From Antedon mediterranea (Eukaryota > Animalia > Echinodermata): 64,000 nt of DNA. The stretch spans positions 29,939,499 through 30,003,498 of the forward strand of contig NC_092676.1 of the NCBI RefSeq assembly GCF_964355755.1, given 5' to 3'. Positions within the stretch are counted from its first letter, which is position 1, and the number at the start of each line of letters is the position of its first letter. This document shows, one piece after another, positions 8,065 to 62,013 of this stretch. The notes beneath the pieces are model-generated. The model was given only the letters and a program-made list of their open reading frames with translations. It made no database searches and was not told where the DNA came from. Made by a program: the position numbers and the translations under genes.

Positions 8065-8170
8065 AAAGCTCTGTCCACACTATCAAACGAAATATGATGT
8101 GCCCATATATGGACATGATGTTCCCATATCACTACCATATTTTTTTCTAGTTTGATAGTGTAGATAGATC
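8065..8170. mobile_element. MITE family 'ctgtctacactatcaaac' copy in UST intron 5-6
   Basis: Terminal inverted repeats aaagctctgtccacactatcaaac ... gtttgatagtgtagatagatct around an internal palindromic core (gtgatgtgcccatatatgg..). Confidence 0.75.
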
Positions 8171-8245
8171 TGTAGTGTACACCTTGCATTCTTTACTGTC
8201 TTTATGACAAAAAGCAATGACAAGGTACATAATGGCCACCCCACT

Positions 8246-8700
8246 GTTTACATTCTGAATGTAGCATTAAAATGCAAGTACAGCAACAAGCAATTGTTTA
8301 CATTCTGAATGTAGCATTAAAATGCAAGTACAGCAACAAGCAATTGTTTACATTCTGAATGTAGCATTAAAATGCAAGTACAGCAACAAGCAATTGTTTA
8401 CATTCTGAATGTAGCATTAAAATGCAAGTACAGCAACAAGCAATTGTTTACATTCTGAATGTAGCATTAAAATGCAAGTACAGCAACAAGCAATTGTTTA
8501 CATTCTGAATGTAGCATTAAAATGCAAGTACAGCAACAAGCAATTGTTTACATTCTGAATGTAGCATTAAAATGCAAGTACAGCAACAAGCAATTGTTTA
8601 CATTCTGAATGTAGCATTAAAATGCAAGTACAGCAACAAGCAATTGTTTACATTCTGAATGTAGCATTAAAATGCAAGTACAGCAACAAGCAATTGTTTA
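8246..8700. repeat. Tandem repeat, 50-bp unit x about 9 (caattgtttacattctgaatgtagcattaaaatgcaagtacagcaacaag) in UST intron 5
   Basis: Near-identical direct repeats visible in the sequence. Confidence 0.9.
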
Positions 8701-8718
8701 CGCCGTTTGTTTCATTAC

Positions 8719-8866
8719 CTGGTATTTTTCTTCTTCTGTACCCTTAAATGGACGGGTACTCTTATCGTTCTTGCCGTCACCAAATCGCCTAAAGTAATAT
8801 TGTGATGTAAATCTTTCAATAGGGTCACGAACTATGTTGATATATTTCACATATGAAGAGCTGAAT
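8719..8866 (-). CDS. UST: UST exon 5 (FSSSYVKYINIVRDPIERFTSQYYFRRFGDGKNDKSTRPFKGTEEEKYQ; 3'-PB motif)
   Basis: Matches human VYINIIRDPVNRFLSNYFFRRFGDWRGEQNH..; donor gtaatg on the minus strand. Confidence 0.8.
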
Positions 8867-9132
8867 CTATCGAAAAAAAGGGTTAAGAAAATTTAAATAA
8901 AATGTATTTGGATCTAGCGCCATAAGCAGATTCAGATTTGAATCAAATAACATTCAAACTTCTGTATCTTCCATTTGATATATTCCAATTTGTTTAACAA
9001 AACAGCATCATCTTTTATTCCCATCAAAAGGAACAAATGAAGTGAATGCAGCTTCAGCAAATTTTAAAAACACAAATTTCATTTACTTAGTTTACATTAA
9101 GTATTATTAATTGGCATTGGAAGAATACTTAC

Positions 9133-9212
9133 TTGGTAAAATCAATGTAATGCAAATGTCGCTGAAATAAGAATGGTGGGTCTACCTTCAAAAGAACACT
9201 CACAAGCAGATT
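9133..9212 (-). CDS. UST: UST exon 4 (NLLVSVLLKVDPPFLFQRHLHYIDFTK)
   Basis: Matches human ..QPYLFTRHVHFLNFSRFG; acceptor ttttag and donor gtaagt on the minus strand. Confidence 0.75.
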
Positions 9213-9557
9213 CTAAAAATAAATAAACAATTTCATTTTTGTCGGATGCCAGTGTGTATTATAATTTAACTTGTGGAAAAGTTTCATCGGATTTTAATAA
9301 AATATAAAAAGGGTTCAGCAACTCTTTGTTTCATTTTAATACCAATTTTGTTACCATTATCTAACAGGTAGACACTGAGCTTGCCTTGCCAAGATAGTAA
9401 AAGTCCTGTGATCTTATGTCTGGTCGCAACAAATACCAACAGTACTGTACATAATCTCTGCGGTGCACGGTGGCTGTTAAGGGGCTTGGCACTGATATCG
9501 CAGTCACATAAAGTTTGATAGTGTGGACAACAGGCGCGGATTTAGGCGGGGGCTAAA

Positions 9558-9838
9558 CAGGCTTCAGAATACAAACCTATTTAGCGCCCCCTAATGTCTA
9601 ACGCTGGATCTGCCCCTGGACAAGGCTTCAGAATACAAACCTATTTAGCGCCCCCTAATGTCTAACGCTGGATCTGTCCCTGGACAAGGCTTCAGAATAC
9701 AAACCTATTTAGCCCCCCTAATCTCTAACGCTGGATCTTCCCCTGGACAAGGCTTCAGAATACAAACCTATTTAGCCCCCCTAATCTCTAACGCTGGATC
9801 TGCCCCTGGACAAGGCTTCCGAATACAAACCTTCTTTT
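9558..9838. repeat. Tandem repeat, 63-bp unit x about 4.5 (caggcttcagaatacaaacctatttagcgccccctaatgtctaacgctggatctgcccctgga) in UST intron 3
   Basis: Direct repeats; the ORF-track ORF 9658-9864 is an artefact of the repeat. Confidence 0.9.
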
Positions 9839-9869
9839 CCTCTGATGTACGGGTTTGGTTATAAATAAC

Positions 9870-9974
9870 CGAGTTGATCATGTTGTATTTGTTAACCTTG
9901 GCTAAATGTTTGAAAACGTCCAACACTGACCGACTTCCACATTTACCAACACGATTAAAAATAATACGTTGAGC
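9870..9974 (-). CDS. UST: UST exon 3 (AQRIIFNRVGKCGSRSVLDVFKHLAKVNKYNMINS; 5'-PSB PAPS-binding motif)
   Basis: Matches human UST VVYNRVGKCGSRTVVLLLRILSEKHGFNLVTSD. Confidence 0.8.
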
Positions 9975-10664
9975 CTGAAAGGTGATAAAATATTAAGGAA
10001 TATGTTACAGTAAGTGTAGTGATGTTACATTACTTAATTCACTCAAACTTAGCAACTTTTGGTATTAATTATAGATAGTATAGAATCCAGTATAACCACA
10101 ATGTAAGTAGATAACTTAGTTTTCTATCTTGTTAATGATTTTACTTTTTGATTTAATAGAGTTGTTTTGATATTTGTGTTTCTGTTAATGTTTTATCTTT
10201 GTACGAGACAAGCACAATTATTTCCACTTGTTCTGTGCACGAAATAAATTGTAGAAATATCTGGTAGAACATTTGTTTTGTTGTCACAAGCACTTTACGT
10301 ATAACCCTTTCAAATCGTCTAGCAAAACATCTCAGGAGTTTACACACCATGGCCGCAACACTCTGGTATAATTATGCTAGATAGCATAATATTGACCCAT
10401 CTGCCATCTAGCATTTATGCTAGACATAATTTTAGAAAATCTGGCATAATTTTGTGCTGCCACCTAGCATAATTTAATTTCAAATGCTGGCCACACTGAT
10501 TACACCTGCATTTTGTATGGGGTGCACTCAGGTGTAAGTAAACTCCAGCGTTTCCCTAGGCATGTGACAGGGTATTTATTAGTTATAACATTATTTTATT
10601 CTAACTTTTTAAAAGTAAAACCAATAATTGAAAACAGATAACAATATCATAACAGCATCCTCAC

Positions 10665-10921
10665 CGTTGTATCTTCCCAGTTGCCATATAAGGGTAATTT
10701 TTCAACTCCTTCCTTAGTTTCGTTCCAGTCGTATAACCATTTCTTTTTTCCAACAATTACTTTATCTGGTTTACTTAGTATAGTGTTTACTGGTGGTTCA
10801 ACAACCTTTTTATTTTCATTTACAACGTTTCCAACTACTTCTGTTGACTTGTTTTGTGAAACTTTGTTAGTTTCTTCAAAAACATTCTTTCCTTCATCTT
10901 GAAAACCCATAATTTTTCGCT
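10665..10921 (-). CDS. UST: UST exon 2 (stem region ..KIMGFQDEGKNVFEETNKVSQNKSTEVVGNVVNENKKVVEPPVNTILSKPDKVIVGKKKWLYDWNETKEGVEKLPLYGNWEDTT)
   Basis: Open frame ending in strong donor gtgagg (plus-strand cctcac 10659-10664); phase-compatible with exons 1 and 3. Confidence 0.55.
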
Positions 10922-10990
10922 CTGAAAAAAAAATAATCTTCATTCGTTGAAAAATAAAATTCAGTAAATAGAGTACATTATTAGTAGATG

Positions 10991-11111
10991 GAGTGGAGTT
11001 GTAGCTTGGTGGTTATGATGCTTGGTTACCATTTCAAGGTCCTGGGTTCAAGTCCTGTCATGTGTCAGGATTTTTTATAATGACAAATTAAAACTCTACT
11101 TCCAAAGACTA
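10991..11111 (+). mobile_element. tRNA-derived SINE copy, 5' part, interrupted by the foldback insertion
   Basis: gagtggagttgtagcttggtgg...gggttcaagtcctgtc carries A-box and B-box like motifs; same family as 31071-31290. Confidence 0.7.
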
Positions 11112-12313
11112 CGAAAGCCCATTAATGCCATTTTAAGTATATGTTTTTCGAACGTAATCCGTTATAACGAATTAGTAATTCGTTTGAACGGATTAATAAT
11201 TCGTTTGAACGGATTAATAATCTGTTAATTACTAATTTGTTTAAACGGATTACTAATTTGTTCAAACGGATTACTAATCCGTTCAAACGAATTACTAATT
11301 TGTTTAAACGGATTACTAATTCGTTCAAACGAATTACTAATTTGTTTAAACGGATTACTAATTCGTTCAAACGAATTACTAATTTGTTTAAACGGATTAG
11401 TAATCCGTTCAAACGAATTACTAATTCATTCAAACGAATTAGTAATCCGTTTAAACGAATTAATAATTTGTTTAAACAAATTAATAATTTGTTTAAACGG
11501 ATTATTAATCTGTTTGAACAAATTAGTAATTCGTTTGAACGAATTAGTAATCCGTTTAAACAAATTATTAATTTGTTTAAACAAATTAATAATTTGTTCA
11601 AACGGATTACTAATTCGTTAGAACGAATTAGTAATTCGTTTGAACAAATTAGTAATCCGTTTAAACAAATTACTAATCCGTTTGTAACGGATTCCTAATT
11701 CGTTTTAACAGATTATTAATCTGTTTAAACAAATTAGTAATTCGTTTGAACAGATTAGTAATCCGTTCAAACGAATTACAACATATTCTTTAAATGGCAC
11801 TTGTTGTATATGTTGCAATTGGTTTGAACGGATTACTAATTCGTTTGAACAGATTACTAATCCGTTCAAACGAATTACTAATTCGTTCAAACAGATTAGT
11901 AATCCGTTTAAACAAATTATTAATTTGTTTAAACAAATTATTAATTTGTTTAAACGGATTACTAATTCGTTTGAACGAATTAGTAATCCGTTTAAACAAA
12001 TTAGTAATCCGTTTAAACAAATTAGTAATCCGTTTAAACAAATTAGTAATTCGTTTGAACGAATTAGTAATTCGTTTGAACAAATTAGTAATCCGTTTAA
12101 ACAAATTAGTAATTCGTTGGAACGGATTAGTAATCCGTTTAAACGAATTACAACATATACTTTAAATGGCACTTGTTGTATATGTTGCAATTCGTTTGAA
12201 CGGATTACTAATTCGTTTGAACAGATTATTAATCCGTTCAAACGAATTACTAATTCGTTATAACGGATTACGTTCGAAAAACATATACTTAAAATGGCAT
12301 TAATGGGCTTTCG
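11112..12313. mobile_element. Foldback-type DNA transposon: about 70-bp terminal inverted repeats (cgaaagcccattaatgccattttaagtatatgtttttcgaacgtaatccgttataacgaattagtaattcg) enclosing inverted arms of a 21-bp satellite (cgtttgaacggattaataatt family) plus small internal palindromes
   Basis: Left end 11112-11185 is the exact reverse complement of right end 12243-12313. The satellite reads FKRITN on the + strand in the left half and on the - strand in the right half. It is inserted into a SINE with a 6-7 bp target duplication (aaagac(t)). Confidence 0.8.
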
Positions 12314-12440
12314 TAAAAGACTTGTTATAAGACTTTGTTTATGTAGAGCATCTTATGTATATGTTTGTCTTGTGAACGGGATTGCTGCCTTTAAGGATAG
12401 TGAATGAATTCGCTTATGGTTATCCTTGGCAATTTGCCAA
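12314..12440 (+). mobile_element. tRNA-derived SINE copy, 3' part, after the foldback insertion
   Basis: aaagacttgtt...gtttatgtagagcatcttatgtatatgtttgtcttgtgaac...ggttatccttgg matches the 3' half of the solo SINE at 31190-31290. Confidence 0.7.
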
Positions 12441-12630
12441 AATATTCTTTACAATTGTCACCTCTACCATACAAATTATTTTTTGCTTTGTCGTCTTCAT
12501 GCTTCACTACACGCAACGAACCATCTATTTGATTGTTTGACCGACCCGGGTATACATTATTACATAACACAGTTATTTGCTCACAACAAAACCACGTTTT
12601 AAAGTTCCTGCTTAAATGTTATTTACTTAC

Positions 12631-12856
12631 CTTCTATATGTTTCCAATATTCCTTCCACTCTAGTTTCGGTTTTCTTGATGTAATCGGTTTTTTCTTAGG
12701 CCCAACTTTGTGTTTGCCGGCGATGGACAGTACTCCGCTTGCTGATGATGTACCTTCGCCATAAGATAAGCTCCCATTACTGCCAACATATACATAGCAG
12801 ATTATTAGAACACCAGTAATCAGAAATAAAGTTATCAATATTTTTTTGTTTGCCAT
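12631..12856 (-). CDS. UST: UST (uronyl 2-sulfotransferase) exon 1: type-II signal anchor MANKKILITLFLITGVLIICYVYVGSNGSL...EWKEYWKHIE
   Basis: ATG at 12856-12854 on the minus strand; N-terminal hydrophobic anchor typical of Golgi sulfotransferases; donor gtaagt (plus-strand acttac 12625-12630). Confidence 0.7.
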
Positions 12857-13565
12857 TTTAACTTAAAAGTCCGTCCATATAAATGTTAGATAATACTGGC
12901 CGACATGGAACTAGTTTTACAGTTTTATAAATGTTGACACGTCATAATATACAGCACAGGAAGACATGACACCCTTCTAAGCTGGTGCTCAAGCCGTGAT
13001 TTTAAGTACGCTCAAGTCTGGCCCTCGCTCGCTCGCTCACCAACAAAAGACTTCACAATTCCAACTTGTAACAGGTTGTGACTACAACGTCTTTCTACAT
13101 ATCGCCCTCTATAGTTTTGGACAAATCAAAGGCTGGAAGAAGCAGACGAACCTATTTAAATCACAGTTAATTAATCATAATTTAATCATGCAATTTTGTT
13201 TTGAATGATAACATATATTGAAGTATATATTTTTTAAACCAACATTTTAATTGTTATTGTATGAAAAAATATATGAAGAAAACCAATTTATCATGATATC
13301 AACAATATACATGATGACATTTTAACCAATTAATCATTGTTCTTTCAAAAATCTAAGTAATTACTTTGCAGTAATGAGAACGATTAGACTGCCCCTGGGG
13401 TTAAAATAAGCGTTATTTTGTCGAGATTTATAATTACTAATAATTACGTGGAGATGTCAACAAAGAGTTGAGTTGATTGACTAAAGGATGCTGGTGAATG
13501 ATATTCACTTTTATCTACGAAATCACTAAACAGAAGGTGTGTGGTGTTGACAGTCTTATCGGTAA

Positions 13566-13820: not shown

Positions 13821-13854
13821 TGGTACCATATTAATTTAATCTAACGGTTAGATT

Positions 13855-14775
13855 ATGAATGATTCAGTAGAAGAACAAGTAGACACAACGATGTTACTAG
13901 CGTCTAGATGGATTATATCCATAACTGGAATCGTCGCAAATTCTTTGGTCATCTTTGTATTTGTCTACAATAAATCATTTAAGAAGTCGCTTTCGTTAAA
14001 ATTACTTCTACATCAAACTGTGATTGATTTGATTGGATGTGTAATGTTTTTAATATTCTACAACTATGTTATTTATGCCGATAATGACAAGCCAACATTA
14101 TTATGCAAATTTCGTTCATTGTTTTGGTACATGACTGTGGCGTCTTCGTACAACTTGGTAGTCTTGACCGTCGAACGGTATATTGCTGTTATTCATCCGT
14201 TATTCTACCGAATGAAGTCATCAAGCGGGAATAAACTAATCATATACACTCTTCCTTTACTTATTCCACATATACCCGGTTTTCTGGCCGGAATTCGTAT
14301 ATTTGACATAATGGAGTATGATAACGGCGTATGCTATCTGAAAGATGAACACCCTATTTTTACAGGCGTTTATCAGCTTATCTTCAATGCACTTTTTCCT
14401 ATTAGCGTTATGTCCTATTGTTACGGCTGTATTCTGTGGAAGTTAAGCCAACGGTCTATAGTAGGAAGTTCTACTCCTCAACAGCCGGGCGCGCCAGGTT
14501 CCAACCTTAATGCGCATGCGCCGTGTTTTAAAACAAACCTGATATTAACACTCATGCAGTCGTCTGTCGTTTTTCTGGTAACAATCACGCCGAATTGTGT
14601 CTTTATTTTTGTGTATTGTCTGTGCACGTGTTTCGAGTATAACTCTGTTTTGCATAGAGTAACAGAATTATTAATAGCGTCTAATTTAACCATTAATCCG
14701 TTTATATATTGTATAACTTTAAAAGAATTTCAGCGCGGTATTTTGAAAATTAGAAATGCCGTCGTGAATTTGTAG
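13855..14775 (+). CDS. Intronless orphan rhodopsin-like (class A) GPCR, 306 aa
   Basis: Single 921-nt ORF with seven hydrophobic segments, E/DRY-type motif TVERYIAVIHP after TM3 and NPFIY in TM7. Confidence 0.75.
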   Translation: MNDSVEEQVDTTMLLASRWIISITGIVANSLVIFVFVYNKSFKKSLSLKLLLHQTVIDLIGCVMFLIFYNYVIYADNDKPTLLCKFRSLFWYMTVASSYNLVVLTVERYIAVIHPLFYRMKSSSGNKLIIYTLPLLIPHIPGFLAGIRIFDIMEYDNGVCYLKDEHPIFTGVYQLIFNALFPISVMSYCYGCILWKLSQRSIVGSSTPQQPGAPGSNLNAHAPCFKTNLILTLMQSSVVFLVTITPNCVFIFVYCLCTCFEYNSVLHRVTELLIASNLTINPFIYCITLKEFQRGILKIRNAVVNL

Positions 14776-29286: not shown

Positions 29287-29324
29287 GTAAATAGTTATTT
29301 CTGTTAATTGATCTAAAACTCTGT

Positions 29325-29435
29325 CTACACTATCAAACTAATTTGACAAAAAATGATGTACTCAAATATGGTAGTGATATGACATCATCATGTCCATTAT
29401 GGTCACATTACATAAAGTTTGATAGTGTAGACAGA
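29325..29435. mobile_element. MITE family copy in PARP4 intron 4
   Basis: ctctgtctacactatcaaac...gtttgatagtgtagacagaatc. Confidence 0.8.
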
Positions 29436-29521
29436 ATCCTGATTCTTTTTACACTAACCATTTCATTGACACTAGAATTTTAAGTAGAGGAAGTTAATGT
29501 TATTATTGGTTGTTTTTAAAG

Positions 29522-37665: not shown

Positions 37666-37790
37666 AAGCTCTGTCTACTCTATCAAACTATATGTTTCAA
37701 AAAAATGTGATGTGGCTATATATGGACATGATGATGTCATATTACCACCATAAGTAAGCATATCGCTACCATATTTGGGCATTTTATATC
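37666..37790. mobile_element. MITE family copy in PARP4 intron 19 (left end and core; the right end is degenerate)
   Basis: aagctctgtctactctatcaaac...gtgatgtggctatatatggacatgatgatgtcat. Confidence 0.6.
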
Positions 37791-41845: not shown

Positions 41846-41990
41846 AAAGCTCTGTCTACACTATCAAACTTTATGTGACAAAAAATGTGATATGCCCAAA
41901 TATGGAAGTGATATGCACAAATATAGTAGTGATATGACATGTCCATATATGGGCAAATTCAGATAAAGTTTGAGAGTGTAGACAGAGCTT
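41846..41990. mobile_element. MITE family copy, complete, in a PARP4 intron
   Basis: aaagctctgtctacactatcaaactttatgtgacaaaaaatgtgatatgcccaaatatgg...gataaagtttgagagtgtagacagagcttt. Confidence 0.85.
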
Positions 41991-45771: not shown

Positions 45772-45880
45772 TAAAGTTCTGTTTACACTATCAAACTAGT
45801 TTGACAAAAAAAGTGTAATGTGCCCAAATATGGTAGTGATATGCTTAAATATGGTAGTGATATATCATCATCATGTGCCA
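45772..45880. mobile_element. MITE family copy, partial, in a PARP4 intron
   Basis: aaagttctgtttacactatcaaactagtttgacaaaaaaagtgtaatgtgcccaaatatggtagtgatatg.. Confidence 0.6.
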
Positions 45881-46062
45881 TAACTAATCCGTTTTTGTTG
45901 TCCATCATTCGAAACAGTAATGGTGATATACAATATAATGGTGTTCTTTAATTATCATTGTTTTTATTATTTACTTAAAATAAATTTGAAGTTACCATAC
46001 CTAAAGTTATGCATTAAAGCATTTGTTTATGCCATGATATTTTCATTTATATTTGAATGTAG

Positions 46063-48410: not shown

Positions 48411-48417
48411 TTTTCAG

Positions 48418-48879: not shown

Positions 48880-50105
48880 AAAAGAGTTTTAAGTACTGTA
48901 CTGTATACTCAATTTGTACTGTATACTCAATCTGTACTGTATACTCAATTTGTACTGTACACTCAATCTGTACTGTATACTCAATTTGTACTGTATACGC
49001 AATTTGTACTGTATACTCAATTTGTACTGTATACTCAATGTGTACTGTATACTCAATTTGTACTGTATACTCAATTTGTACTGTATACTCAATTTGTACT
49101 GTATACTCAATCTGTACTGTATACTCAATCTGTACTGTATACTCAATTTGTACTGTATACTCAATTTGTACTGTATACTCAATCTGTACTGTAGTACTCA
49201 ATTTGTACTGTATACTCAATTTGTACTGTATACTCAATCTGTACTGTATACTCAATTTGTACTGTATACTCAATCTGTACTGTAGTACTCAATCTGTACT
49301 GTAGTACTCAATTTGTACTGTATACTCAATTTGTACTGTATACTCAATTTGTACTGTATACTCAATTTGTACTGTATACTCAATCTCTACTGTATACTCA
49401 ATTTGTACTGTATACTCAATTTGTACTGTAGTACTCAATTTGTACTGTATACTCAATTTGTACTGTATACTCAATCTGTACTGTAGTACTCAATTTGTAC
49501 TGTAGTACTCAATTTGTACTGTATACTCAATTTGTACTGTATATTCAATCTGTACTGTATACTCAATTTGTACTGTATACTCAATTTGTACTGTAGTACT
49601 CAATTTGTACTGTATACTCAATCTGTACTGTAGTACTCAATCTGTACTGTATACTCAATTTGTACTGTATACTCAATCTGTACTGTAGTACTCAATTTGT
49701 ACTGTAGTACTCAATTTGTACTGTATACTCAATCTGTACTGTATACTCAATTTGTACTGTATACTCAATTTGTGCTGTATACTCAATTTGTACTGTATAC
49801 TCAATCTGTACTGTATACTCAATCTGTACTGTATACTCAATCTGTACTGTAGTACTCAATTTGTACTGTAGTACTCAATTTGTACTGTATACTCAATCTG
49901 TACTGTATACTCAATTTGTGCTGTATACTCAATTTGTGCTGTATACTCAATTTGTACTGTATACTCAATTTGTACTGTAGTACTCAATTTGTACTGTATA
50001 CTCAATTTGTACTGTACACTCAATCTGTACTGTATACTCAATTTTTACTGTAGTACTCAATTTGTACTGTATACTCAATTTGTACTATATACTCACATTT
50101 TTTTA
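48880..50105. repeat. Satellite, 18-bp unit (actcaatttgtactgtat and variants ctg/gta) x about 68, 1.2 kb, in a PARP4 intron
   Basis: Direct repeats; the ORF-track ORFs 48878-50041 on both strands are artefacts. Confidence 0.95.
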
Positions 50106-50202
50106 TCACATAAACTTTGATAGTGTAGACAGAGCTTTATACGTGAGCAGTTATTCTGGCCTATGCCTATTGAGTTTGCTAAATAAATATTATTATTGTT
50201 AG

Positions 50203-55118: not shown

Positions 55119-55239
55119 GTAAGTGGAAGTATTTTGATTTTGCTGTACCTTTTTTATTTATAACTATATTATTAACTATTTAAAGCTCTCTCTACACTAT
55201 CAAACTTTATGTAGTAAAAAATTGTTTTGTTTTTCATAG

Positions 55240-55743
55240 GCAATATATTTGTTCATCAGAGAATTTGATTGGTTGTTCCTTGCCAAAAGATGTCTTCCAG
55301 CCAGAAGAAGGCCAATCAAAACCTTTCTTATATTCATTATACTCTTGTACACCATTTGCATCATTGTTTGTTGATAAAGGCAATCCAGATGAAACAGACT
55401 CTATTAGTCGAATGGATAAAAGAAACACTCTAAAAGCATCTAGTCTTGATAATGTTATATCCACCAATAAAAAACAGCAGTTCAAAGTTCAAGAAAGAGA
55501 TAAAAAATCATTGGCTGATCCAAGGCAGCTAGTGACCAACAAAACTGATGTCATTGACGTGCCTTCCCAGCATTCATCATCAACACAACGTCATGATGAG
55601 TTAAAAAATGAAGAACTTTTACCTAACAAATTAAAAAGCTTGTCCATTGATTTAAGCAAAGTTGGCGTGGGTACTATTTCAAATGTCCACTCTTCAATTG
55701 ACTTGGATCATCATCACCATGGCTACGATACGTTATCATTGAG
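55240..55743 (+). CDS. UBE3A: UBE3A exon 5: long low-complexity linker exon (KQYICSSENLIGCSLPKDVFQPEEGQSKPFLYSLYSCTPFASLFVDKGNPDETDS...IDLDHHHHGYDTLSL)
   Basis: 504-nt open frame between ag 55238-55239 and gtaagt 55744. Confidence 0.6.
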
Positions 55744-55852
55744 GTAAGTAATATTACAATATAAATATATTATTTATAAATTTGGACAAATAAAAATAAT
55801 ATACAGTAGTTATACCTTAATTATGTTTATATATATTTTTTTTACTATTTAG

Positions 55853-56105
55853 GTCTGTTAGTGACCACCAGCTTCCTAATAGATACCATACTAATTTATC
55901 ATGTTCTCAAGTTAGTCTACACTCAAATCAATCATTAAGTTCTCTCTCCAACACGTTACCTTTTACTCAAAGTCCAATACCAAGCCATGAAGCTTTAGTG
56001 GAGACGGAAGACTTAGTTGCCTTTGAACGATCGTTGTCCTGTGAAATGTCGCTAGAAATACCATCCGAGTTTTCACTGACACACTTGACCTTTGACATGT
56101 TACAG
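55853..56105 (+). CDS. UBE3A: UBE3A exon 6 (RSVSDHQLPNRYHTNLSCSQVSLHSNQSLSSLSNTLPFTQSPIPSHEALVETEDLVAFERSLSCEMSLEIPSEFSLTHLTFDMLQ)
   Basis: Open 253-nt exon, acceptor ctatttag, donor gtactg. Confidence 0.6.
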
Positions 56106-56410
56106 GTACTGTATGTAGTATAGATTTCCAATGTTACTTAGTATATATTAGTATTGTTAGTGATTGGTGTACATTCTTAAACAATCGACTAGATTAGTAA
56201 CAATTAGTGAATTTTATTTTATATATTTTACATATACTCTACCAATACTCTCTGAAATTCTCCCAAAACCTGCTTGACATCCCAAATCTCTTTATTACAT
56301 TTACCAGAATTTATGGAATATCATTAACAATTCTGTACCAGAATTTATGGAAAACCAGACAAGATATGGTGGTATACTGTACTAATGTTGACTGGATATT
56401 TATTTCTTAG

Positions 56411-56512
56411 GCACCTGTTGATCACTATAAGCTATGTTCTGATCCATCATTCCTGATCAACACAATAAGAACTGTGTTCACTTCATCAGATGCTCTCAAT
56501 TCCAGCTTCCTT
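56411..56512 (+). CDS. UBE3A: UBE3A exon 7 (APVDHYKLCSDPSFLINTIRTVFTSSDALNSSFL)
   Basis: Phase 0-0, acceptor tttcttag, donor gtaagt. Confidence 0.65.
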
Positions 56513-56535
56513 GTAAGTTTTTTGTTATGTATTGT

Positions 56536-56665
56536 AAAGCTCTGTCTAAACTACCAAACTTTAGTATGACAAAAAATGTGATGTGCCCATATATGGACAT
56601 GTTGATGTCCATATTTCAGCACAGCACACTTTTTTGTCAAACTAGTTTCATAGTGTAGACAGCTT
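56536..56665. mobile_element. MITE family copy in UBE3A intron 7
   Basis: aaagctctgtctaaactaccaaac...tttcatagtgtagacagctt. Confidence 0.8.
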
Positions 56666-56733
56666 AATGGTTACTGTATATAAAAGGGTGATAAGAACAA
56701 ATTAACTGATGTTTTTTATCTATTTTTATGAAG

Positions 56734-56907
56734 GTAAAAGAAGATGACTTTAGTAGTGGGGTTGACCTGGAAGCAGTTAGTAAAGCATATGACCTTTTGT
56801 TGAATCTTTATCCATGCGATGTCTTTCAGTCAACAATGAATAATTCACTTGAGATTCTTATGTCTTCTATCCATCCTGCATCTGTTCAAAATGATGATAT
56901 TAATCAG
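56734..56907 (+). CDS. UBE3A: UBE3A exon 8 (VKEDDFSSGVDLEAVSKAYDLLLNLYPCDVFQSTMNNSLEILMSSIHPASVQNDDINQ)
   Basis: Phase 0-0, donor gtaaaa 56908. Confidence 0.65.
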
Positions 56908-56980
56908 GTAAAAAAACTCACAAAATAATAAACATTTAAACCAAACAGTGAAAGTGTAAATCTAAGCAAATAAATGTATA

Positions 56981-57147
56981 AAGCCCTTTCTACACTATCA
57001 AACTAGTTTGACAAAAAAAAGTGTGATGTGCCCAAATATGGTAGTGATATGCTTAAATATGGTAGTGATATGACATCATCATGTCCATATATATGTGCAC
57101 ATCACACTTTTCTTGTCACATAAAGTTTGATAGTGTAGACAGAGCTT
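56981..57147. mobile_element. MITE family copy in UBE3A intron 8
   Basis: aagccctttctacactatcaaactagtttgacaaaaaaaagtgtgatgtgcccaaatatggtagtgatatg...cacataaagtttgatagtgtagacagagctt. Confidence 0.85.
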
Positions 57148-57185
57148 AACAATGTTATCACTATATAATCTATTTTTAGTTTCAG

Positions 57186-57379
57186 ATATTGCTTGCAAAT
57201 CCCTTATTTGTTAGTAACCATGAACTATTATGCAAATTGTCTGCAATATTGGGGGCTCTGTCTACATCTACGAAGAATGCTTTAGTGAAAATATTAAGCA
57301 CCTATGAACGAACGAGCTTCCAAAAACTGATCACCATGTTTAAGACTCATTTATCTGCAATGCTGCATCCACAACAAGG
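57186..57379 (+). CDS. UBE3A: UBE3A exon 9 (ILLANPLFVSNHELLCKLSAILGALSTSTKNALVKILSTYERTSFQKLITMFKTHLSAMLHPQQ)
   Basis: Matches human ..ADQIRRMMETFQQLITYKV. Confidence 0.7.
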
Positions 57380-57539
57380 GTTTGTAAGATTCAACGTTTA
57401 CTTGTGGAGGGTGTTGGCAATTTAGTAAAATTGTATTCACCATAAAATAATATGTGTTAAGATCCTGCTAACATATGGTTTTATTCTATTAAGGTCAGAT
57501 GAAACAAAGTCAGCTTGTGTTTTTTTAATTTATTTACAG

Positions 57540-57656
57540 TTCTGAGGACAATCTAATTGATGTTGCAGAAGTTCTTGAAATCCTTTATGACGCCAACACA
57601 TTATCTGAAAAGACCTTAGCATCATGTGAACAATTTTACTCTGACGAAGTATCAAG
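57540..57656 (+). CDS. UBE3A: UBE3A exon 10 (GSEDNLIDVAEVLEILYDANTLSEKTLASCEQFYSDEVS)
   Basis: Matches human [20 protein letters not shown]..; acceptor tttacag, donor gtaaat. Confidence 0.7.
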
Positions 57657-58071
57657 GTAAATTAAGGAACTTCATGGTATTCACCATTTATTGTACCTAC
57701 TGTATGGTAGAATACCGTAAGCACTAAGTCAGTCAAGAAGATACATCTAACTCACTCTTAATACTTTATATTAAATTGATAACTTTATTTAGAATCATTA
57801 ATGATATTATATTGATGTTGCAAAAGTTCTTGATATCCTTTATGATGGCAACACACTATCTGAATTGAGAAACTTTAAGTCAGTCAAGAAGATACATCTA
57901 ACTAACTAAATGAATACAACATACAAGATAAATTTATTGTCAAATAATTCAACGAAAGATTTGGTTTTTCTCATGGCAACTTAATATAACAATAGAATAA
58001 AATCATTAAAATGTTTAGAACACAAAGTAAAATAAACAGTACAGTATGATTGTTTTTTATTTTGAAAATAG

Positions 58072-58177
58072 AAATCTTGATTACAAAACGGAATATAATA
58101 AGTGGAGGCTAAGCCAAGAAAGCAAGTCAGTAAGAAGCAAGTCTTTACTCAACTATCCATTTCTTCTTAATCCAGCA
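58072..58177 (+). CDS. UBE3A: UBE3A exon 11 (RNLDYKTEYNKWRLSQESKSVRSKSLLNYPFLLNPA)
   Basis: 3' part matches human KFSFMTCPFILNAV; the acceptor position is uncertain (three candidates: 58072, about 58100, about 58112), the donor gtaagt is firm. Confidence 0.5.
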
Positions 58178-58261
58178 GTAAGTCACTGTATTCATTAAAT
58201 AAACTTGTACTTGTTTTCATTATTTTCGTAGGGATTAACCGATTCTGTATTTGTGTTTTTA

Positions 58262-58339
58262 GTCCAAAGTACTTGTTCTCCATTTTGATGCTGTCATTCA
58301 GATGAGAAAGGAATATCAGTCTGCTATTTTACATCAAGC
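58262..58339 (+). CDS. UBE3A: UBE3A exon 12 (SKVLVLHFDAVIQMRKEYQSAILHQA)
   Basis: Matches human [28 protein letters not shown]. Confidence 0.75.
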
Positions 58340-58867
58340 AGTGAGTTACTTAAATCAAACTTAGTCTATGCTTGAAAAAATATCCACTTTTATCCAGCTG
58401 CCTTTCAGGCACTGAATGCTTGTCAGTATACCATGAGTGATGGAGTGTAAAGTGATGTGACACTTTGAGCACATTTGGACGGAATAAATTTACATGTGTA
58501 ATGGTCGCGTGTGGTGTAAATTGCTGTTGCTTTTACACCTTAAACTGCAAGCTGATTAACCGCAAGATAAGGAGCAATTTGACCTTATGCATGAAATATG
58601 ACCCTGCTGGGTATTTTTTTGTTAGTTTACACGTGTTTATTGGTCATCGTCCGAACGATCACTAATTATACATGTAAAGTTACACATGTAACTGATTTTA
58701 CGTCCGAACACAGCCTAAGTTGTTGTTCTTGTTAGTTTTTCATTTCATAATTTCTATATATTTTAAATGCAAATGACAATAAATGGAAGTAATTTTTTCA
58801 TTGATGAATGAACAAAATTCATCCATAAATGATTTTGTTTGTGTAAAATCCAATTATGTTTTTATAG

Positions 58868-59071
58868 CGTGTAAACCAAGCGCAGAAATACATTCAAGAA
58901 GGAAGTCGTTTTAAGAACATCTCAGACAGCGTTAAGTCAGCCATCTGTCCCTTTCTGGTGCTAGAAATTCGTAGGGATCATCTTATAGCAGACACCATGG
59001 CTCAAATCAGAGGCAAACAAGTTGACCTTAAGAAACCGCTTAAAATTAAGTACATAGGCGGTGGTGAGCAG
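58868..59071 (+). CDS. UBE3A: UBE3A exon 13 (start of the HECT domain: RVNQAQKYIQEGSRFKNISDSVKSAICPFLVLEIRRDHLIADTMAQIRGKQVDLKKPLKIKYIGGGEQ)
   Basis: Matches human [44 protein letters not shown]. Confidence 0.85.
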
Positions 59072-59270
59072 GTATGTGTAAGATTTTGTGTATCAAATAT
59101 GAATCATATTATTTGTTTTGTTTATACAGTGTATTTAGGCAAACTGCCAATGATAACCATAAAGTGAGATCATTCCACTATCTTTCTTAAAGTTGGAAAT
59201 CCTGTTCACTAGACAAACATATACACAAGATGCTTTACATACTGTAAACACAGACTTATTACAAGTCTTT

Positions 59271-59385
59271 GGGAGTGGAGTTGTAATTTGTCATTAGAAA
59301 AAATCTTGGCACTGACAGCATTTAAACACCAGAACCTTAGATTGGTAGCCAAGCATCATAACGACTCTACATTTGTTAAAAAAAT
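59271..59385 (-). mobile_element. Fragment of the tRNA-derived SINE in minus orientation in a UBE3A intron
   Basis: gggagtggagttgtaatttgtcattagaa..ccttagattggtagccaagcatc is the reverse complement of the SINE body. Confidence 0.65.
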
Positions 59386-59428
59386 CATATACGCTTATAT
59401 CAAAATAAATAAATTTAATTGGCTGTAG

Positions 59429-59546
59429 GGATTGGACATGGGAGGCTTGCAAAAGGAGTTTTTTCAATTGCTGACAGCGTCAATCTTTGAGCCTAGCTAT
59501 GGCATGTTTCTAGAGACTGACGAAACCAGGCTTTTGTGGATAAATG
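59429..59546 (+). CDS. UBE3A: UBE3A exon 14 (GLDMGGLQKEFFQLLTASIFEPSYGMFLETDETRLLWIN)
   Basis: Matches human [39 protein letters not shown]. Confidence 0.85.
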
Positions 59547-59755
59547 GTGAGGTTTTATTTTCTTTTCTTTCTACTTGTTACTTTGGCTAATCAAATCAAA
59601 TATTTATTTGTTCCATATAAAAAAATGTGAACACTGGAAAAATTGTTTTCCTCGACAGAACAAAAAATTCACAATCATCATACATTAGATAAAATTACAA
59701 TTGGGACCCATCAATGAATGATAAAATTAGCCCCGAGTTTATAATTTTATTTTAG

Positions 59756-59991
59756 GTGGATCTTTAGAATCAGACGATGAATTTGAATTAGTTGGAATCA
59801 TCCTAGGCCTAGCAATCTACAATGGTATAATACTTGACGTCCACTTTCCGAACCTGATCTATAAGAAGCTTCATGGTGTCAAGCTAAGCCTAGAAGATCT
59901 GAAAGAAGTCCAGCCTACATTAGCCAAAAGCCTGCAAGAGTTACTAGAGTTTGATGGTGATGTTGAAGAAGTGTTCTGTCAGACATTTCAG
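59756..59991 (+). CDS. UBE3A: UBE3A exon 15 (GGSLESDDEFELVGIILGLAIYNGIILDVHFPNLIYKKLHGVKLSLEDLKEVQPTLAKSLQELLEFDGDVEEVFCQTFQ)
   Basis: Matches human ..[70 protein letters not shown]. Confidence 0.9.
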
Positions 59992-60197
59992 GTAATGTGA
60001 TTTTTATTATGTTTTGTCCACAAAGTGATGGCTGTATTGTATGTTAATTATTGTAGCGATGTTGGTTGTTGAAAGCTTTGTCTACACTATCAAAATTTAT
60101 GTGACAAAAAATGTGATTTAGATTATGTTTTGATGGCTGTATGATAATTATTGTATCTATGTTTGTTGTTGACATCTTTCTCACAGATTCTTATTTT

Positions 60198-60310
60198 AAA
60201 ACTCCATCTACACTATCAAACTTTATGTGACAAAAAAATGTTATGTGCCCATATATGGATACGATGATGCTATATCACACTTTTTTTGTCAAACTAGTAG
60301 ACATAGCTTT
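60198..60310. mobile_element. MITE family copy in UBE3A intron 15 (a partial copy also lies at 60072-60120)
   Basis: ctccatctacactatcaaactttatgtgacaaaaaaatgttatgtgcccatatatgg...gtcaaactagtagacatagcttta. Confidence 0.8.
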
Positions 60311-60363
60311 ATCCTTTCCAGCCACAGATTATTAATTAAATGAACTTAACATTTTTTTTACAG

Positions 60364-60441
60364 ATTTCCATAAACTGCTTTAGTCAGGTGATCACAGTTG
60401 ATCTTATTCCAAATGGTTCACAGGTGCCGGTTACAAGCAAG
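60364..60441 (+). CDS. UBE3A: UBE3A exon 16 (ISINCFSQVITVDLIPNGSQVPVTSK)
   Basis: Matches human [27 protein letters not shown]. Confidence 0.8.
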
Positions 60442-60629
60442 GTAAGAAATTACTTTTTAAATTTTTTTAATTTTTATTCGCCAATAACAGGAGGGTAACA
60501 TTTTTAATTACTGTATTTGTAATTCTTTGTGTCCATATATGGGTACATCATATAAATAGGCTGTTCTAAAGTGAATACCAGGAATTGTTTTTACAAGGCC
60601 TTGTATCTTTAAGTTGTTTTTTTTTTCAG

Positions 60630-60698
60630 AACCGACAAATTTATGTTGATTGTTATGTCCAGTACTTTCTTACAACCAGTGTGTCAAAGCAATTTGAG
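60630..60698 (+). CDS. UBE3A: UBE3A exon 17 (NRQIYVDCYVQYFLTTSVSKQFE)
   Basis: Matches human [23 protein letters not shown]. Confidence 0.85.
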
Positions 60699-60861
60699 GT
60701 ACATTCTCTTTCAGTTCTGTTTGTGTAATTTTGTTTCTGTAATTATCCTCTCCTCATATTGCATGGAATATTTTAGATACTAATGGTAGTAACATTTTAA
60801 ATGTTGTTAAACATTGTACAACATTTATTAATATATTATGTTTTGGTTGTTTTTTTATCAG

Positions 60862-61010
60862 GCCTTTTCTCATGGTTTTCACTTGATGTGTGGTGGTCCC
60901 GCATTGAAACTGTTTCAAGCTGAGGAAACAGAACTACTTGTGTGTGGTAATCCTGACTTAGATTTCATAGCTCTAGAATCTTGTACTACATATGAAGATG
61001 GCTTCACCAG
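60862..61010 (+). CDS. UBE3A: UBE3A exon 18 (AFSHGFHLMCGGPALKLFQAEETELLVCGNPDLDFIALESCTTYEDGFT)
   Basis: Matches human [50 protein letters not shown]. Confidence 0.9.
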
Positions 61011-61444
61011 GTTAGCTTGAATAAATTGATAGTTGAAATGAGGTTTTGGCCCTCCCCACAGAACATTGCAAAATGTTCAATTTAAAAGTTGAGTTTCTGC
61101 TATTCTTTTAAAATTATGGTGATAAAATTGAGTACCACCACCACTATATTTAACCAGCTTTAAAAAACTCACCTTTTCAACAAATATGTCGATAAACCAT
61201 ATTCAATTCAGTTGAGATCCATTTATATTTTATGGTCTGTCACTCATTTTTATTTCTCTTTTTTATTTATTTCATGGATTACTTTTATTTTTATGAAGGA
61301 CATAGAGGCTTTATGCATTATGCGCTTAAAAGTCCAAATTTATTGTTGTTGTTAATATTATTATTTAAGTTACTTATTCTTACATAATAAGGCTCAATTT
61401 TGTATTGTTTTGTTATGAATTTGGTTGTATACATTTTTCCCCAG

Positions 61445-61541
61445 ACACCATCGAACTATTAAAGCTTTCTGGAGTGTTGTTCACAGCTTAGATGAAACAC
61501 AGAAAAAGAAGTTGCTGAATTTTATAACTGGAAGTGACAGG
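61445..61541 (+). CDS. UBE3A: UBE3A exon 19 (RHHRTIKAFWSVVHSLDETQKKKLLNFITGSDR)
   Basis: Matches human [33 protein letters not shown]. Confidence 0.85.
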
Positions 61542-61867
61542 GTAAGGTTTTCTATCTCTATTTATTTTGAGTAAAATAATAACTAAAAATCTGGTTTCCA
61601 TATAGCAAGTAGGGCGACATTGGACAATGTAGTCAATGGTATGTCTCCTAATACTTAAATTTATTATTATTTGTCTGTGATAGAATAAACCTATTGGGAC
61701 AGGTGTATTTTTCATTTCATTTGTCGTAAATGAGTTGAAAACATATTGCAAAGCAAATGTGTGTATGTGCATTTCATGACAATATAACAATAATAAACTG
61801 AACAACTAAACCGCCCAGTGATATGTTGAAAATGAATTGATTAATTTAGAAACGATAACGATGAGGG

Positions 61868-62013
61868 AAGCTCTATCAAACTAATTTGACAAAAAAAGTA
61901 TTATGTGTCCAAATATGGTAGTAATATGACCAAAGATGGTTGTGATATGGTCCATAACATGGCACATCACATTTTTTTTGTCACATAAAGTTTGATAGTG
62001 TAGACAGAACTTA
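61868..62013. mobile_element. MITE family copy in UBE3A intron 19
   Basis: aagctctatcaaactaatttgacaaaaaaagtattatgtgtccaaatatggtagtaatatg...cacataaagtttgatagtgtagacagaactt. Confidence 0.8.

What the first reader, a model, noticed from the sequence alone, without database searches (positions are those of the whole stretch)
8065..62013. Highly abundant hairpin MITE family (TIR agctctgtctacactatcaaac), about 13 copies in 64 kb, all intronic
Complete copies at about 8065-8170, 29325-29435, 41846-41990, 56536-56665, 56981-57147, 60198-60310 and 61868-62013. Partial copies at about 9495-9530, 37666-37790, 45772-45880, 50107-50140, 55187-55230 and 60072-60120. Elements are about 110-165 bp with about 22-bp TIRs and an internally palindromic core (gtgatatgcccaaatatgg .. 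ccatatatgggcacatcac), so each copy can fold into a long hairpin. The density, about one per 5 kb, and the exclusively intronic placement in PPIL4/UST/PARP4/UBE3A make it a dominant intron-sculpting element here. Several copies lie within 100-250 bp of splice sites (e.g. 56981-57147 ends 39 bp before the acceptor of UBE3A exon 9).
Basis: seen in the sequence. Interest (0 to 1): 0.6.

Follow-up and report, generated by a model that had tools for sequence, protein, structure and literature searches.

The report
Hairpin MITE family in crinoid introns
The repeats are real copies of a small, non-coding "cut-and-paste" mobile element (a MITE) scattered through the introns of a feather-star (Antedon) genome; this is an ordinary kind of genomic parasite, not a new type of element.

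Summary
The 22-nt terminal motif occurs 16 times at up to 3 mismatches, against 0 expected by chance. Complete copies are 107-167 nt, almost fully palindromic, non-coding and AT-rich. They fold into long hairpins (z -6 to -12). Length varies through a 21-bp internal subrepeat.

Similarity stops at a conserved T-A-A just outside AGCTC. No longer flanking duplication exists. This fits a 2-bp TA target duplication plus a terminal A (Tc1/mariner or Stowaway-like). A 3-bp TAA/TTA duplication (PIF/Harbinger or Tourist-like) is less likely but not excluded. TTAA and 4-10-bp duplications are rejected.

The window comes from a crinoid: exons are about 98% identical to Antedon mediterranea. Related elements sit at other intron positions of the orthologous gene in Anneissia japonica.

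It is a MITE family, and three copies lie 13-38 nt from splice sites. However, no copy is in PPIL4, and three copies may be intergenic. The family covers 2.1% of the window, against 12.1% for tandem arrays. No autonomous partner, empty site or small-RNA evidence could be obtained. Verdict: a new member of a known kind, of low interest.

The parts
8066..8172 (.). Complete short-form copy (107 nt), both terminal repeats present, subterminal parts deleted. Lies in an intron of the minus-strand UST-like gene. Flanks are TA / (G)TA.
   Evidence: (hairpin -34.4 kcal/mol, z -6.4)
9497..9529 (+). Fragment: inner part of the B arm (GTCACATAAAGTTTGATAGTGTGGACA), with the outer 8 nt missing. Lies in a UST-like intron next to a 63-bp tandem array.
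   Evidence: (E 6.8e-5)
29316..29439 (+). Complete copy (124 nt) with the A arm on the left and the B arm on the right. Lies in a PARP4 intron. The right flank is degenerate (CTG).
   Evidence: E 2.8e-30; z -7.4
37666..37783 (-). Partial copy: B arm plus interior with 21-bp subrepeats; the other terminal repeat is lost. Lies in a PARP4 intron between the vWA exons.
   Evidence: (E 2.1e-21)
41847..41990 (.). Best-preserved complete copy (144 nt). Both arms are of B type. Terminal repeats have 0 and 1 mismatch. Flanks are TA|A...T|TA. It lies downstream of the last recognisable PARP4 exon, so intron or intergenic is unresolved.
   Evidence: (-67.4 kcal/mol, z -12.0)
45774..45902 (+). Partial long-form copy: A arm plus two 21-bp subrepeats, with the right arm lost. 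Its interior is 96% identical to the interior of the 56981 copy. Intron or intergenic is unresolved.
   Evidence: (family D20)
50093..50137 (+). Fragment: B arm only, directly abutting the end of the 18-bp x66 tandem array (48897-50100). The right flank is T|TA.
   Evidence: (E 3.4e-9)
55183..55226 (-). Fragment: B arm only. Lies in the 120-nt intron 4 of the UBE3A-like gene and ends 13 nt before the acceptor AG of exon 5, so it covers the usual branch-point zone.
56537..56667 (-). Complete short-form copy (131 nt). Starts 23 nt after the donor of exon 7 and makes up 60% of the 220-nt intron 7 of the UBE3A-like gene. Has a 2-nt deletion in one terminal repeat. Flanks are TAA/TAA.
   Evidence: E 2.1e-33; -55.1 kcal/mol, z -9.3
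56981..57147 (+). Complete long-form copy (167 nt) with two 21-bp subrepeats. Makes up 60% of the 278-nt intron 8 and ends 38 nt before exon 9. Flanks are TAA/TAA.
   Evidence: (-71.7 kcal/mol, z -10.3)
60073..60117 (-). Fragment: B arm only, in intron 15 of the UBE3A-like gene. It sits between two copies of a duplicated intron segment. The junction is at the octamer AATGTGAT, which the MITE interior and the intron start share.
60199..60310 (-). Complete copy with a 10-nt deletion inside the A-arm terminal repeat. Lies in intron 15 and ends 53 nt before exon 16. Flanks are TA|A...T|TA. The hairpin is weakened.
   Evidence: E 8.2e-24; z -1.0
61866..62012 (+). Long-form copy whose left terminal repeat seems to have lost 9 nt (AAGCTCT/ATCAAAC). 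Lies in the 712-nt intron 19 of the UBE3A-like gene.
   Evidence: E 1.2e-32; z -7.1

Best explanation
[quoted passage not shown] MITEs are short, non-coding deletion derivatives of a DNA transposon.

Consensus, oriented: TA | AAGCTCTGTCTACACTATCAAAC-TAGTTTGAC-A7-GTGTGATGTGCCCAAATATGG ... one to three 21-bp units AAATATGGTAGTGATATGnnn ... CCATATATGGGCACATCACA-T7-GTCACATAAAG-GTTTGATAGTGTAGACAGAGCTT | TA.

Inferred mechanism. A transposase encoded elsewhere in the genome binds the roughly 23-nt terminal repeats. It excises the element and reinserts it at a TA dinucleotide, which is duplicated. This is the Tc1/mariner-type, Stowaway-like pattern. The element carries no gene and is propagated only in trans.

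Its near-perfect palindromy lets either DNA strand, or an intronic transcript, fold into one long hairpin. Length differences between copies come from slippage of the internal 21-bp unit and from deletions.

Copies persist where insertion is tolerated, which means introns and spacers. In a compact gene with introns of about 100 nt they inevitably end up next to splice sites.

Shown here: repetition, terminal repeats, homology boundaries, lack of coding capacity, hairpin potential, dispersal with unrelated flanks, and presence of related elements in a second crinoid genus.

Inferred, not shown: transposase-mediated mobility, the TA (rather than TAA/TTA) duplication, and the superfamily.
For: - Repetition far beyond chance: 16 ends at up to 3 mismatches against 0 expected, and 13 loci by profile search.
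- Terminal repeats average 92% identity to the consensus over the first 24 nt across 17 arms. Similarity then ends abruptly. Flank positions -4 and beyond are random (T at -4 in 6 of 17, p = 0.57), while -3 to -1 read TAA in most ends.
- No 4-10-bp flanking direct repeat appears under any choice of boundary. With the right boundary of copy 60200 corrected by hand, exact TA/TA duplications occur in 3 of 6 well-defined copies, and TAA/TAA in 2 of 6.
- A simple likelihood comparison favours 'TA plus terminal A' over a 3-bp TWA duplication by about 2,000-13,000 to 1 using all ends.
- No coding capacity. All reading frames are broken or at most about 45 codons, and MITE-derived peptides have no homologue among 5.8 billion proteins.
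- Hairpins have z -6.4 to -12 in six of seven complete copies.
- The two arms differ subterminally (TAGTTTGAC against TTTATGTGAC), and copies occur in both orientations, as expected for transposed units rather than local duplications.
- Related elements (nhmmer E down to 2.8e-18) lie in other introns of the orthologous gene of Anneissia japonica, so these are independent insertions in a second genus.
- Crinoid genomes are rich in DNA transposons: 34.7% in Glyptometra (PMC13079724).
Against: - No autonomous element with the same terminal repeats is in the window, and no crinoid genome could be searched.
- No empty (pre-insertion) site was available, so mobility and the target-site duplication are inferred from flanks only.
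- Among the four best-preserved complete copies, two show TAA/TAA direct repeats (56537, 56981) and two show TA|A...T|TA (41847, 60199). For these four alone the likelihood ratio for TA is only about 4.
- The terminal sequence AAGCTCTGTC does not resemble the classical Tc1, mariner or Stowaway ends that I recall (memory, not tested).
- Copies are about 8% diverged from the consensus in the terminal repeats and many are truncated, so current activity is not shown.
Confidence: 0.62

Rival explanations
1. Same kind of element (a MITE), but of the PIF/Harbinger (Tourist-like) type. The element proper begins at AGCTCTGTC, and insertion duplicates a 3-bp TWA target (TAA or TTA).
For: - Copies 56537-56667 and 56981-57147 are flanked by exact TAA...TAA direct repeats.
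- All three ends that deviate from TAA read TTA, which is the reverse complement expected at the far end of a TAA duplication.
- The core TCTGTnT near the terminus is reminiscent of PIF/Harbinger ends. This is recalled from memory and was not tested.
Against: - A direct 3-bp duplication forces TAA and TTA to be equally frequent when every end is read towards the element. Observed: TTA at only 3 of the 15 TAA/TTA ends tested (binomial p = 0.018).
- Copies 41847 and 60199 have TAA at both ends, which is incompatible with a 3-bp direct repeat unless a mutation occurred.
- The likelihood ratio is about 2,000-13,000 against this model using all ends, though only about 4 against it for the four best copies.
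Confidence: 0.25
2. The copies are MITE-derived, but some have been recruited for function. They could act as intronic hairpins processed into small RNAs (as human MADE1 elements gave the miR-548 family). Alternatively they could act as RNA structures that loop out most of a small intron, or supply a branch point, and so affect splicing of the UBE3A-like gene.
For: - Long, stable hairpins occupy 60% of introns 7 and 8 and sit 23-38 nt from splice sites.
- The fragment at 55183-55226 covers positions -57 to -14 upstream of exon 5, i.e. the branch-point zone of intron 4.
- There is a precedent for MITE-derived miRNAs (PMC1784062).
Against: - No Rfam family matches anywhere in the window.
- Insertion positions are not shared with Anneissia.
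- Copies are decaying: terminal-repeat deletions, truncations, and a lost hairpin in the 60199 copy.
- Proximity to splice sites is expected from intron size alone.
- No expression or small-RNA data were available.
Confidence: 0.07
3. The elements are not terminal-repeat (TIR) transposon derivatives. They would instead be another class of short interspersed repeat that contains tandem units. The example is non-autonomous Helentron/DINE-1-like elements, which were long mistaken for MITEs.
For: - The family has internal tandem subrepeats. In Anneissia these expand into an array of more than 12 units. DINE-1-like and bivalve 'tandem-repeat MITE' elements show the same feature (PMC4067079, PMC3879986).
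Against: - The element is symmetric over its whole length, with terminal repeats of about 23 nt and both arms nearly identical.
- It lacks the asymmetric ends and 3' subterminal hairpin that, as I recall without having checked here, characterise Helentron derivatives.
- The flanks are T-A, not the T-T insertion site I recall for Helentrons.
Confidence: 0.03

Closest known systems
Stowaway-like / Tc1-mariner-derived MITEs, e.g. human MADE1 (derived from Hsmar1)
   Same: Short, non-coding and AT-rich. Almost the whole element is a palindrome formed by two long terminal repeats. TA at both flanks. High copy number in and near genes. Hairpin-forming transcripts; MADE1 gave rise to miR-548 (PMC1784062).
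   Different: The terminal sequence AAGCTCTGTCTACAC is unrelated to the MADE1 or Stowaway ends as I recall them. The TA duplication is favoured here but not proven. No mariner-type partner was identified. This family also has variable 21-bp internal subrepeats. No small-RNA evidence is available.
Tourist-like / PIF-Harbinger-derived MITEs
   Same: Size, terminal repeats, AT-richness, genic location, and TAA/TTA flanks in some copies.
   Different: TAA and TTA are not balanced at the ends (TTA at only 3 of 15), and two good copies contradict a 3-bp direct repeat.
Tandem-repeat-containing MITEs of bivalves (DTC84 of Donax trunculus; pearl/CvA-type elements)
   Same: A MITE-sized element with a central block of short tandem units whose number varies between copies. 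The block can expand into satellite-like arrays, as seen here in Anneissia at L002:15740-16170 (PMC3879986).
   Different: The bivalve elements have short inverted repeats and an attached microsatellite, and are now often linked to Helentrons. The crinoid element is a full-length palindrome with terminal repeats of about 23 nt and only 1-3 units in Antedon.

Membership tests
MITE (generic definition) | Short element (under about 800 bp) with terminal inverted repeats | tested here: met
   Copies are 107-167 nt. The two terminal repeats of about 23 nt are 92% identical to the consensus across 17 arms.
MITE (generic definition) | No coding capacity | tested here: met
   All six frames of nine copies are broken or at most about 45 codons. 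Concatenated MITE peptides have no homologue.
MITE (generic definition) | Many dispersed copies with unrelated flanking sequence | tested here: met
   13 loci in 64 kb, in both orientations. Flank positions -12 to -4 are random. The genome-wide copy number is not testable here.
MITE (generic definition) | Short target-site duplication of fixed length | tested here: inconclusive
   Flanks are compatible with TA (3 of 6 exact) or TAA (2 of 6 exact). No 4-10-bp duplication is present. No empty site was available.
MITE (generic definition) | Autonomous partner with matching terminal repeats that supplies the transposase | not testable with these tools
   No transposase gene with these ends is in the window. 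The TIR 20-mer scans of the viral, metagenome and prokaryotic collections returned only one chance hit. No crinoid genome is searchable.
Tc1/mariner-derived (Stowaway-like) MITE | TA target-site duplication | tested here: inconclusive
   Favoured: most ends read TA + A, and the likelihood ratio over TWA is about 2,000-13,000 using all ends. It is only about 4 for the four best copies.
Tc1/mariner-derived (Stowaway-like) MITE | Terminal repeats matching those of a Tc1/mariner transposase-encoding element | not testable with these tools
   No repeat library (Repbase/Dfam) or crinoid genome is available.
PIF/Harbinger-derived (Tourist-like) MITE | 3-bp TWA (TAA/TTA) target-site duplication as a direct repeat | tested here: inconclusive
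   Two copies show TAA/TAA. Two others contradict it, and the TAA/TTA imbalance at the ends (TTA at 3 of 15) has p = 0.018.
piggyBac-derived MITE | TTAA target-site duplication | tested here: not met
   The base at -4 is T in only 6 of 17 ends, which is the background frequency. No exact 4-bp direct repeat is present.
hAT / Mutator / Transib / P / Merlin-derived MITE | 5- to 10-bp target-site duplication | tested here: not met
   0 of 6 complete copies have identical 5-10-mers at the two flanks under any of four boundary choices.
Helentron-derived (DINE-1-like) element | Asymmetric ends, short terminal repeats, 3' subterminal hairpin and insertion between T and T without duplication (these features are recalled from memory, not checked against the paper) | tested here: not met
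   The element is symmetric over its full length and its flanks are T-A.
Known RNA families (e.g. miRNA precursors) | Match to a curated covariance model | tested here: not met
   0 Rfam matches at gathering threshold in the whole window.

The most novel reading that the evidence does not exclude
Some of these intronic hairpins are no longer junk. They could be processed into small RNAs, giving a crinoid analogue of MADE1 and miR-548. Alternatively they could act as structural modules that fold away 60% of introns 7 and 8, or supply the branch point of intron 4, of the UBE3A-like gene. In either case MITE insertion would have rewired splicing or regulation of a conserved ubiquitin ligase gene.
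Probability: 0.06. Interest if true: 0.5.

Novelty: new member of a known kind. Interest (0 to 1): 0.2.

Why it matters
This result mainly helps annotation. The family should be masked or labelled in crinoid genomes, and its consensus is given here. It accounts for about 13% of the intron sequence of one compact gene.

It also gives a small, clean example of two known processes:
- MITE insertions more than doubling the size of mini-introns.
- A MITE-internal 21-bp unit seeding a minisatellite array in a related genus.

It does not open a new biological question. MITEs in introns, hairpin-forming MITEs and tandem-repeat MITEs are all well documented, and crinoid genomes are already known to be rich in DNA transposons.

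Tried and rejected
1. Searching for more copies outside the window. Exact scans with the 20-mer CTCTGTCTACACTATCAAAC gave 0 hits in viral contigs and 0 in prokaryotic genome contigs. The single metagenome hit (L001) shows no similarity beyond the 20-mer, so it is a chance match.

2. Locating the window itself or the Antedon orthologue.
- The intronless GPCR protein of the window is not on record.
- The A. mediterranea UBE3A-like protein P0121 is not on record either.
- Only the Anneissia japonica orthologue could be fetched (L002).
- As a result, no empty-site or haplotype comparison was possible.

3. A protein search with concatenated stop-free translations of MITE copies. I hoped to find exonised copies or spurious ORF calls on other crinoid contigs. 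It returned 0 hits.

4. Rfam scan of the window: 0 matches.

5. Pfam on open reading frames between 40.6 and 54 kb, to decide whether copies 41847, 45774 and 50093 are intronic. Nothing was found, so their status stays open.

6. Apparent tblastn extensions of P0121 into the MITEs (56596-56907 and 57069-57422). I judged these spurious. They are low-identity run-ons through open frames, and the Anneissia protein and the splice sites place the exon starts at 56734 and 57186. There is therefore no evidence of exonisation.

7. Ideas considered and rejected:
- TTAA and 4-10-bp target duplications.
- A SINE origin: the elements have terminal repeats and, by eye, no poly-A or other simple-repeat tail at either end. 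No tRNA scan was run.
- Segmental or local duplication as the source of the copies, because the flanks are unrelated.
- A link between the MITE and the neighbouring tandem arrays. Only the 50093 fragment directly abuts one, and the array units are unrelated in sequence.

Full report

Yes. The 22-mer AGCTCTGTCTACACTATCAAAC has 16 matches at up to 3 mismatches on the two strands of the window. None of 100 dinucleotide-preserving shuffles gave a single match. Relaxing to 5 mismatches adds one more end.

A profile HMM built from seven copies and run with nhmmer finds 13 loci and no other significant hit.

- Seven are complete or nearly so: 8066-8172, 29316-29439, 41847-41990, 56537-56667, 56981-57147, 60199-60310 and 61866-62012.
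- Six are fragments: 9497-9529, 37666-37783, 45774-45902, 50093-50137, 55183-55226 and 60073-60117.

**2. Anatomy**

Complete copies are 107-167 nt long. The outer 23 nt or so form terminal inverted repeats that average 92% identity to the consensus over 17 arms.

The palindrome continues inwards through a subterminal block, an A7/T7 run and a core, GTGATGTGCCCA(A/T)ATATGG ... CCATATATGGGCACATCAC. Almost the whole element is therefore self-complementary.

- As RNA, six of seven complete copies fold into a single long hairpin of -34 to -72 kcal/mol, with z -6.4 to -12.0 against shuffles.
- The exception is 60199-60310, which has lost 10 nt of one terminal repeat (z -1.0).

The two arms are not identical. 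One carries CAAAC-TAGTTTGAC (arm A) and the other CAAAC-TTTATGTGAC (arm B). Copies can therefore be oriented, and they occur in both orientations. Copy 41847 has two B-type arms.

Length variation has two sources:
- One to three copies of a 21-bp internal unit (AAATATGGTAGTGATATGnnn), giving the long forms 41847, 45774, 56981 and 61866.
- Internal deletions.

There is no coding capacity. Every frame is interrupted or at most about 45 codons. A protein search with the stop-free translations found nothing in 5.8 billion sequences. No Rfam family matches anywhere in the window.

**3. Ends and target site**

When every end is read towards the element, similarity stops sharply.

- Positions -12 to -4 are random. 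T at -4 occurs in 6 of 17 ends, which is the background frequency.
- Positions -3 to -1 read TAA in most ends. Three ends read TTA (57146, 62011 and 56666, the last after allowing for its 2-nt deletion), and the rest are degenerate.
- No identical 4-10-mers flank any of six complete copies under four alternative boundary choices. This rejects piggyBac (TTAA), hAT, Mutator, Transib, P and Merlin-type duplications.

Two readings remain.

- (A) The element begins with A (AAGCTC...GAGCTT) and duplicates TA. With the right boundary of copy 60200 corrected by hand, three of six copies (8066, 41847, 60199) show this exactly.
- (B) The element begins at AGCTC and duplicates TAA or TTA. Two copies (56537, 56981) show exact TAA...TAA.

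Reading B forces TAA and TTA to be equally common at ends. In the tally tested, TTA accounts for only 3 of 15 TAA/TTA ends (p = 0.018).

A simple substitution model gives a likelihood ratio of about 2,000-13,000 for A over B using all ends. The ratio is only about 4 if restricted to the four best copies.

I therefore favour a TA duplication (Tc1/mariner type, Stowaway-like) at roughly 2.5 to 1 over TWA (PIF/Harbinger type, Tourist-like). The question is open until many more ends or an empty site are examined.

**4. Where the window comes from, and the gene context**

The plus-strand HECT/AZUL gene at 54087-62442 has 20 exons. They are 97-100% identical at the protein level to the 'HECTD2/UBE3A-like' protein of the feather star Antedon mediterranea (P0121). 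They are clearly less similar to that of Anneissia japonica. PARP4 exons are also closest to Anneissia. The window is thus from Antedon or a very close relative.

Other genes:
- A cyclophilin (PPIL4-like) exon lies at 1949-2152.
- A minus-strand 2-O-sulfotransferase gene (UST-like) spans about 6644-12862. It matches HS2ST1 structures at E = 1e-11.
- An intronless GPCR lies at 13855-14775.
- A non-LTR retrotransposon lies at 23.1-27.3 kb.
- PARP4 runs from the BRCT exon near 27.8 kb to at least 40579.

Placement of the 13 loci:
- Two are in UST-like introns.
- Two are in PARP4 introns (29316 and 37666).
- Six are in UBE3A-like introns.
- Three (41847, 45774, 50093) lie between the last recognisable PARP4 exon and UBE3A-like exon 1. 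I could not decide whether this stretch is PARP4 3' intron or spacer.
- None is in the PPIL4 part.

**5. Relation to splice sites**

- The fragment 55183-55226 ends 13 nt before the acceptor of exon 5, in a 120-nt intron. It thus covers the usual branch-point zone.
- Copy 56537-56667 begins 23 nt after the donor of exon 7 and makes up 60% of a 220-nt intron.
- Copy 56981-57147 ends 38 nt before exon 9 and makes up 60% of a 278-nt intron.

Without the inserts these introns would be about 75-110 nt long, so any insertion must lie close to a splice site. Proximity is geometry, not evidence of function.

Overall the family covers 1346 bp, or 2.1% of the window. Tandem arrays cover 12.1%. The family makes up 12.8% of UBE3A-like intron bases. 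'Dominant intron-sculpting element' is therefore too strong for the window, though fair for two or three mini-introns.

**6. Relatives elsewhere**

- Scans of viral contigs, metagenome contigs and prokaryotic genome contigs with the 20-mer found only one chance hit.
- The window and the A. mediterranea gene are not in the contig index.
- The Anneissia japonica orthologue could be fetched (L002).

L002 contains related elements (nhmmer E down to 2.8e-18) at two places.
- L002:22579-22710 starts about 12 nt after the donor of the exon ending ...KIKYIGGGEQ.
- L002:15700-16235 lies in the intron before the exon corresponding to window exon 7.

Their terminal repeats are diverged (TTTGATAGTCTGGACAG...). 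In the second locus the internal 21-bp unit CATATCAAGACCATATATAGG is expanded to more than 12 tandem copies.

The positions differ from those in Antedon. The family, or a group of related families, is therefore present in two comatulid lineages and has inserted independently in each.

**7. Mechanism and rivals**

The best explanation is a non-autonomous cut-and-paste DNA transposon family, mobilised in trans by a transposase that recognises the terminal repeats.

- Repetition, terminal repeats, sharp boundaries, non-coding nature and dispersal are shown here.
- Mobility, the duplication length and the superfamily are inferred.

Rivals:
- The same kind of element but of PIF/Harbinger type (about 0.25).
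- Exaptation of some hairpins as small-RNA precursors or splicing structures (about 0.07). This is not exclusive of a MITE origin. The MADE1/miR-548 precedent is PMC1784062.
- A Helentron/DINE-1-like repeat (about 0.03). I reject this because the element is symmetric end to end and flanked by T-A.
- Chance or low complexity, excluded.

**8. Comparison with known elements, and novelty**

The element works like a Stowaway-type or MADE1-type palindromic MITE. Its variable internal tandem units resemble the tandem-repeat MITEs of bivalves (PMC3879986).

- Membership of 'MITE' in the descriptive sense is met on four of six defining features.
- The target duplication is inconclusive between 2 and 3 bp.
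- The autonomous partner is untestable here.

I found no description of this family in the searchable literature. However, crinoid genomes are reported to be about one-third DNA transposons (PMC13079724), and de novo repeat libraries of those assemblies very likely already contain it.

I rate it a new member of a known kind, interest 0.2.

**9. Dead ends**

See the Tried and rejected section. In short, no additional copies, no empty sites, no exonised copies and no RNA-family matches could be obtained with the available collections.

Noticed in passing
window 11110-12315: A foldback-like block of about 1.2 kb in a UST-like intron. The 91-nt ends are perfectly complementary (11110-11200 against 12225-12315). 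They enclose arrays of a 21-bp unit that is itself a palindrome (AATTCGTTTAAACGAATTACT). Arms of more than 300 nt are 92% complementary.
   Followed up: partly
window 17242-17426 and 18213-18397: A second long inverted-repeat (foldback or long-TIR) structure. The 185-nt arms are 95% complementary, lie 786 nt apart, and are built from 53-bp subrepeats.
   Followed up: partly
window 8245-8701, 29714-30179, 36450-36909, 38475-38805, 47952-48404, 48897-50100, 20046-21648: Unusually many minisatellite arrays with very high unit identity: 50 bp x9.1 at 100%, 41 bp x11.2 at 99%, 47 bp x9.9 at 97%, 18 bp x66 at 94%, and 130 bp x12. Together with the other arrays they cover 12.1% of the window, far more than the MITE family.
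   Followed up: partly
window 23126-27262 (+): An apparently intact non-LTR retrotransposon between the GPCR gene and PARP4. It has a 285-aa ORF1-like frame followed by an 877-aa ORF with endonuclease (Exo_endo_phos) and reverse transcriptase (RVT_1) domains. A separate RT-tail fragment lies at 4665-5231.
   Followed up: partly
window 13855-14775 (+): An intronless 306-aa rhodopsin-family GPCR ORF (7tm_1, E = 1.5e-25) between the UST-like gene and the retrotransposon. The exact protein is not in the public contig index.
   Followed up: partly
L002 (Anneissia japonica VUNX01005450.1) 15740-16170: The 21-bp internal unit of the MITE relative (CATATCAAGACCATATATAGG) is expanded to more than 12 tandem copies inside an intron of the UBE3A-like orthologue. 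This is an example of a MITE seeding a minisatellite.
   Followed up: partly
window 59996-60172: In intron 15 of the UBE3A-like gene, a 65-75-nt segment that starts 4 nt after the donor (59996-60071) is repeated at 60111-60172, with the MITE fragment in between. The junction falls in the octamer AATGTGAT, shared by the MITE interior and the intron start. This suggests a microhomology-mediated rearrangement that truncated the MITE.
   Followed up: partly
window 54087-62442 against L002 10001-28783: The UBE3A-like gene has the same 20 coding exons in both crinoids. It spans 8.4 kb in the Antedon window and 18.8 kb in Anneissia, so intron size differs more than two-fold between the genera.
   Followed up: no
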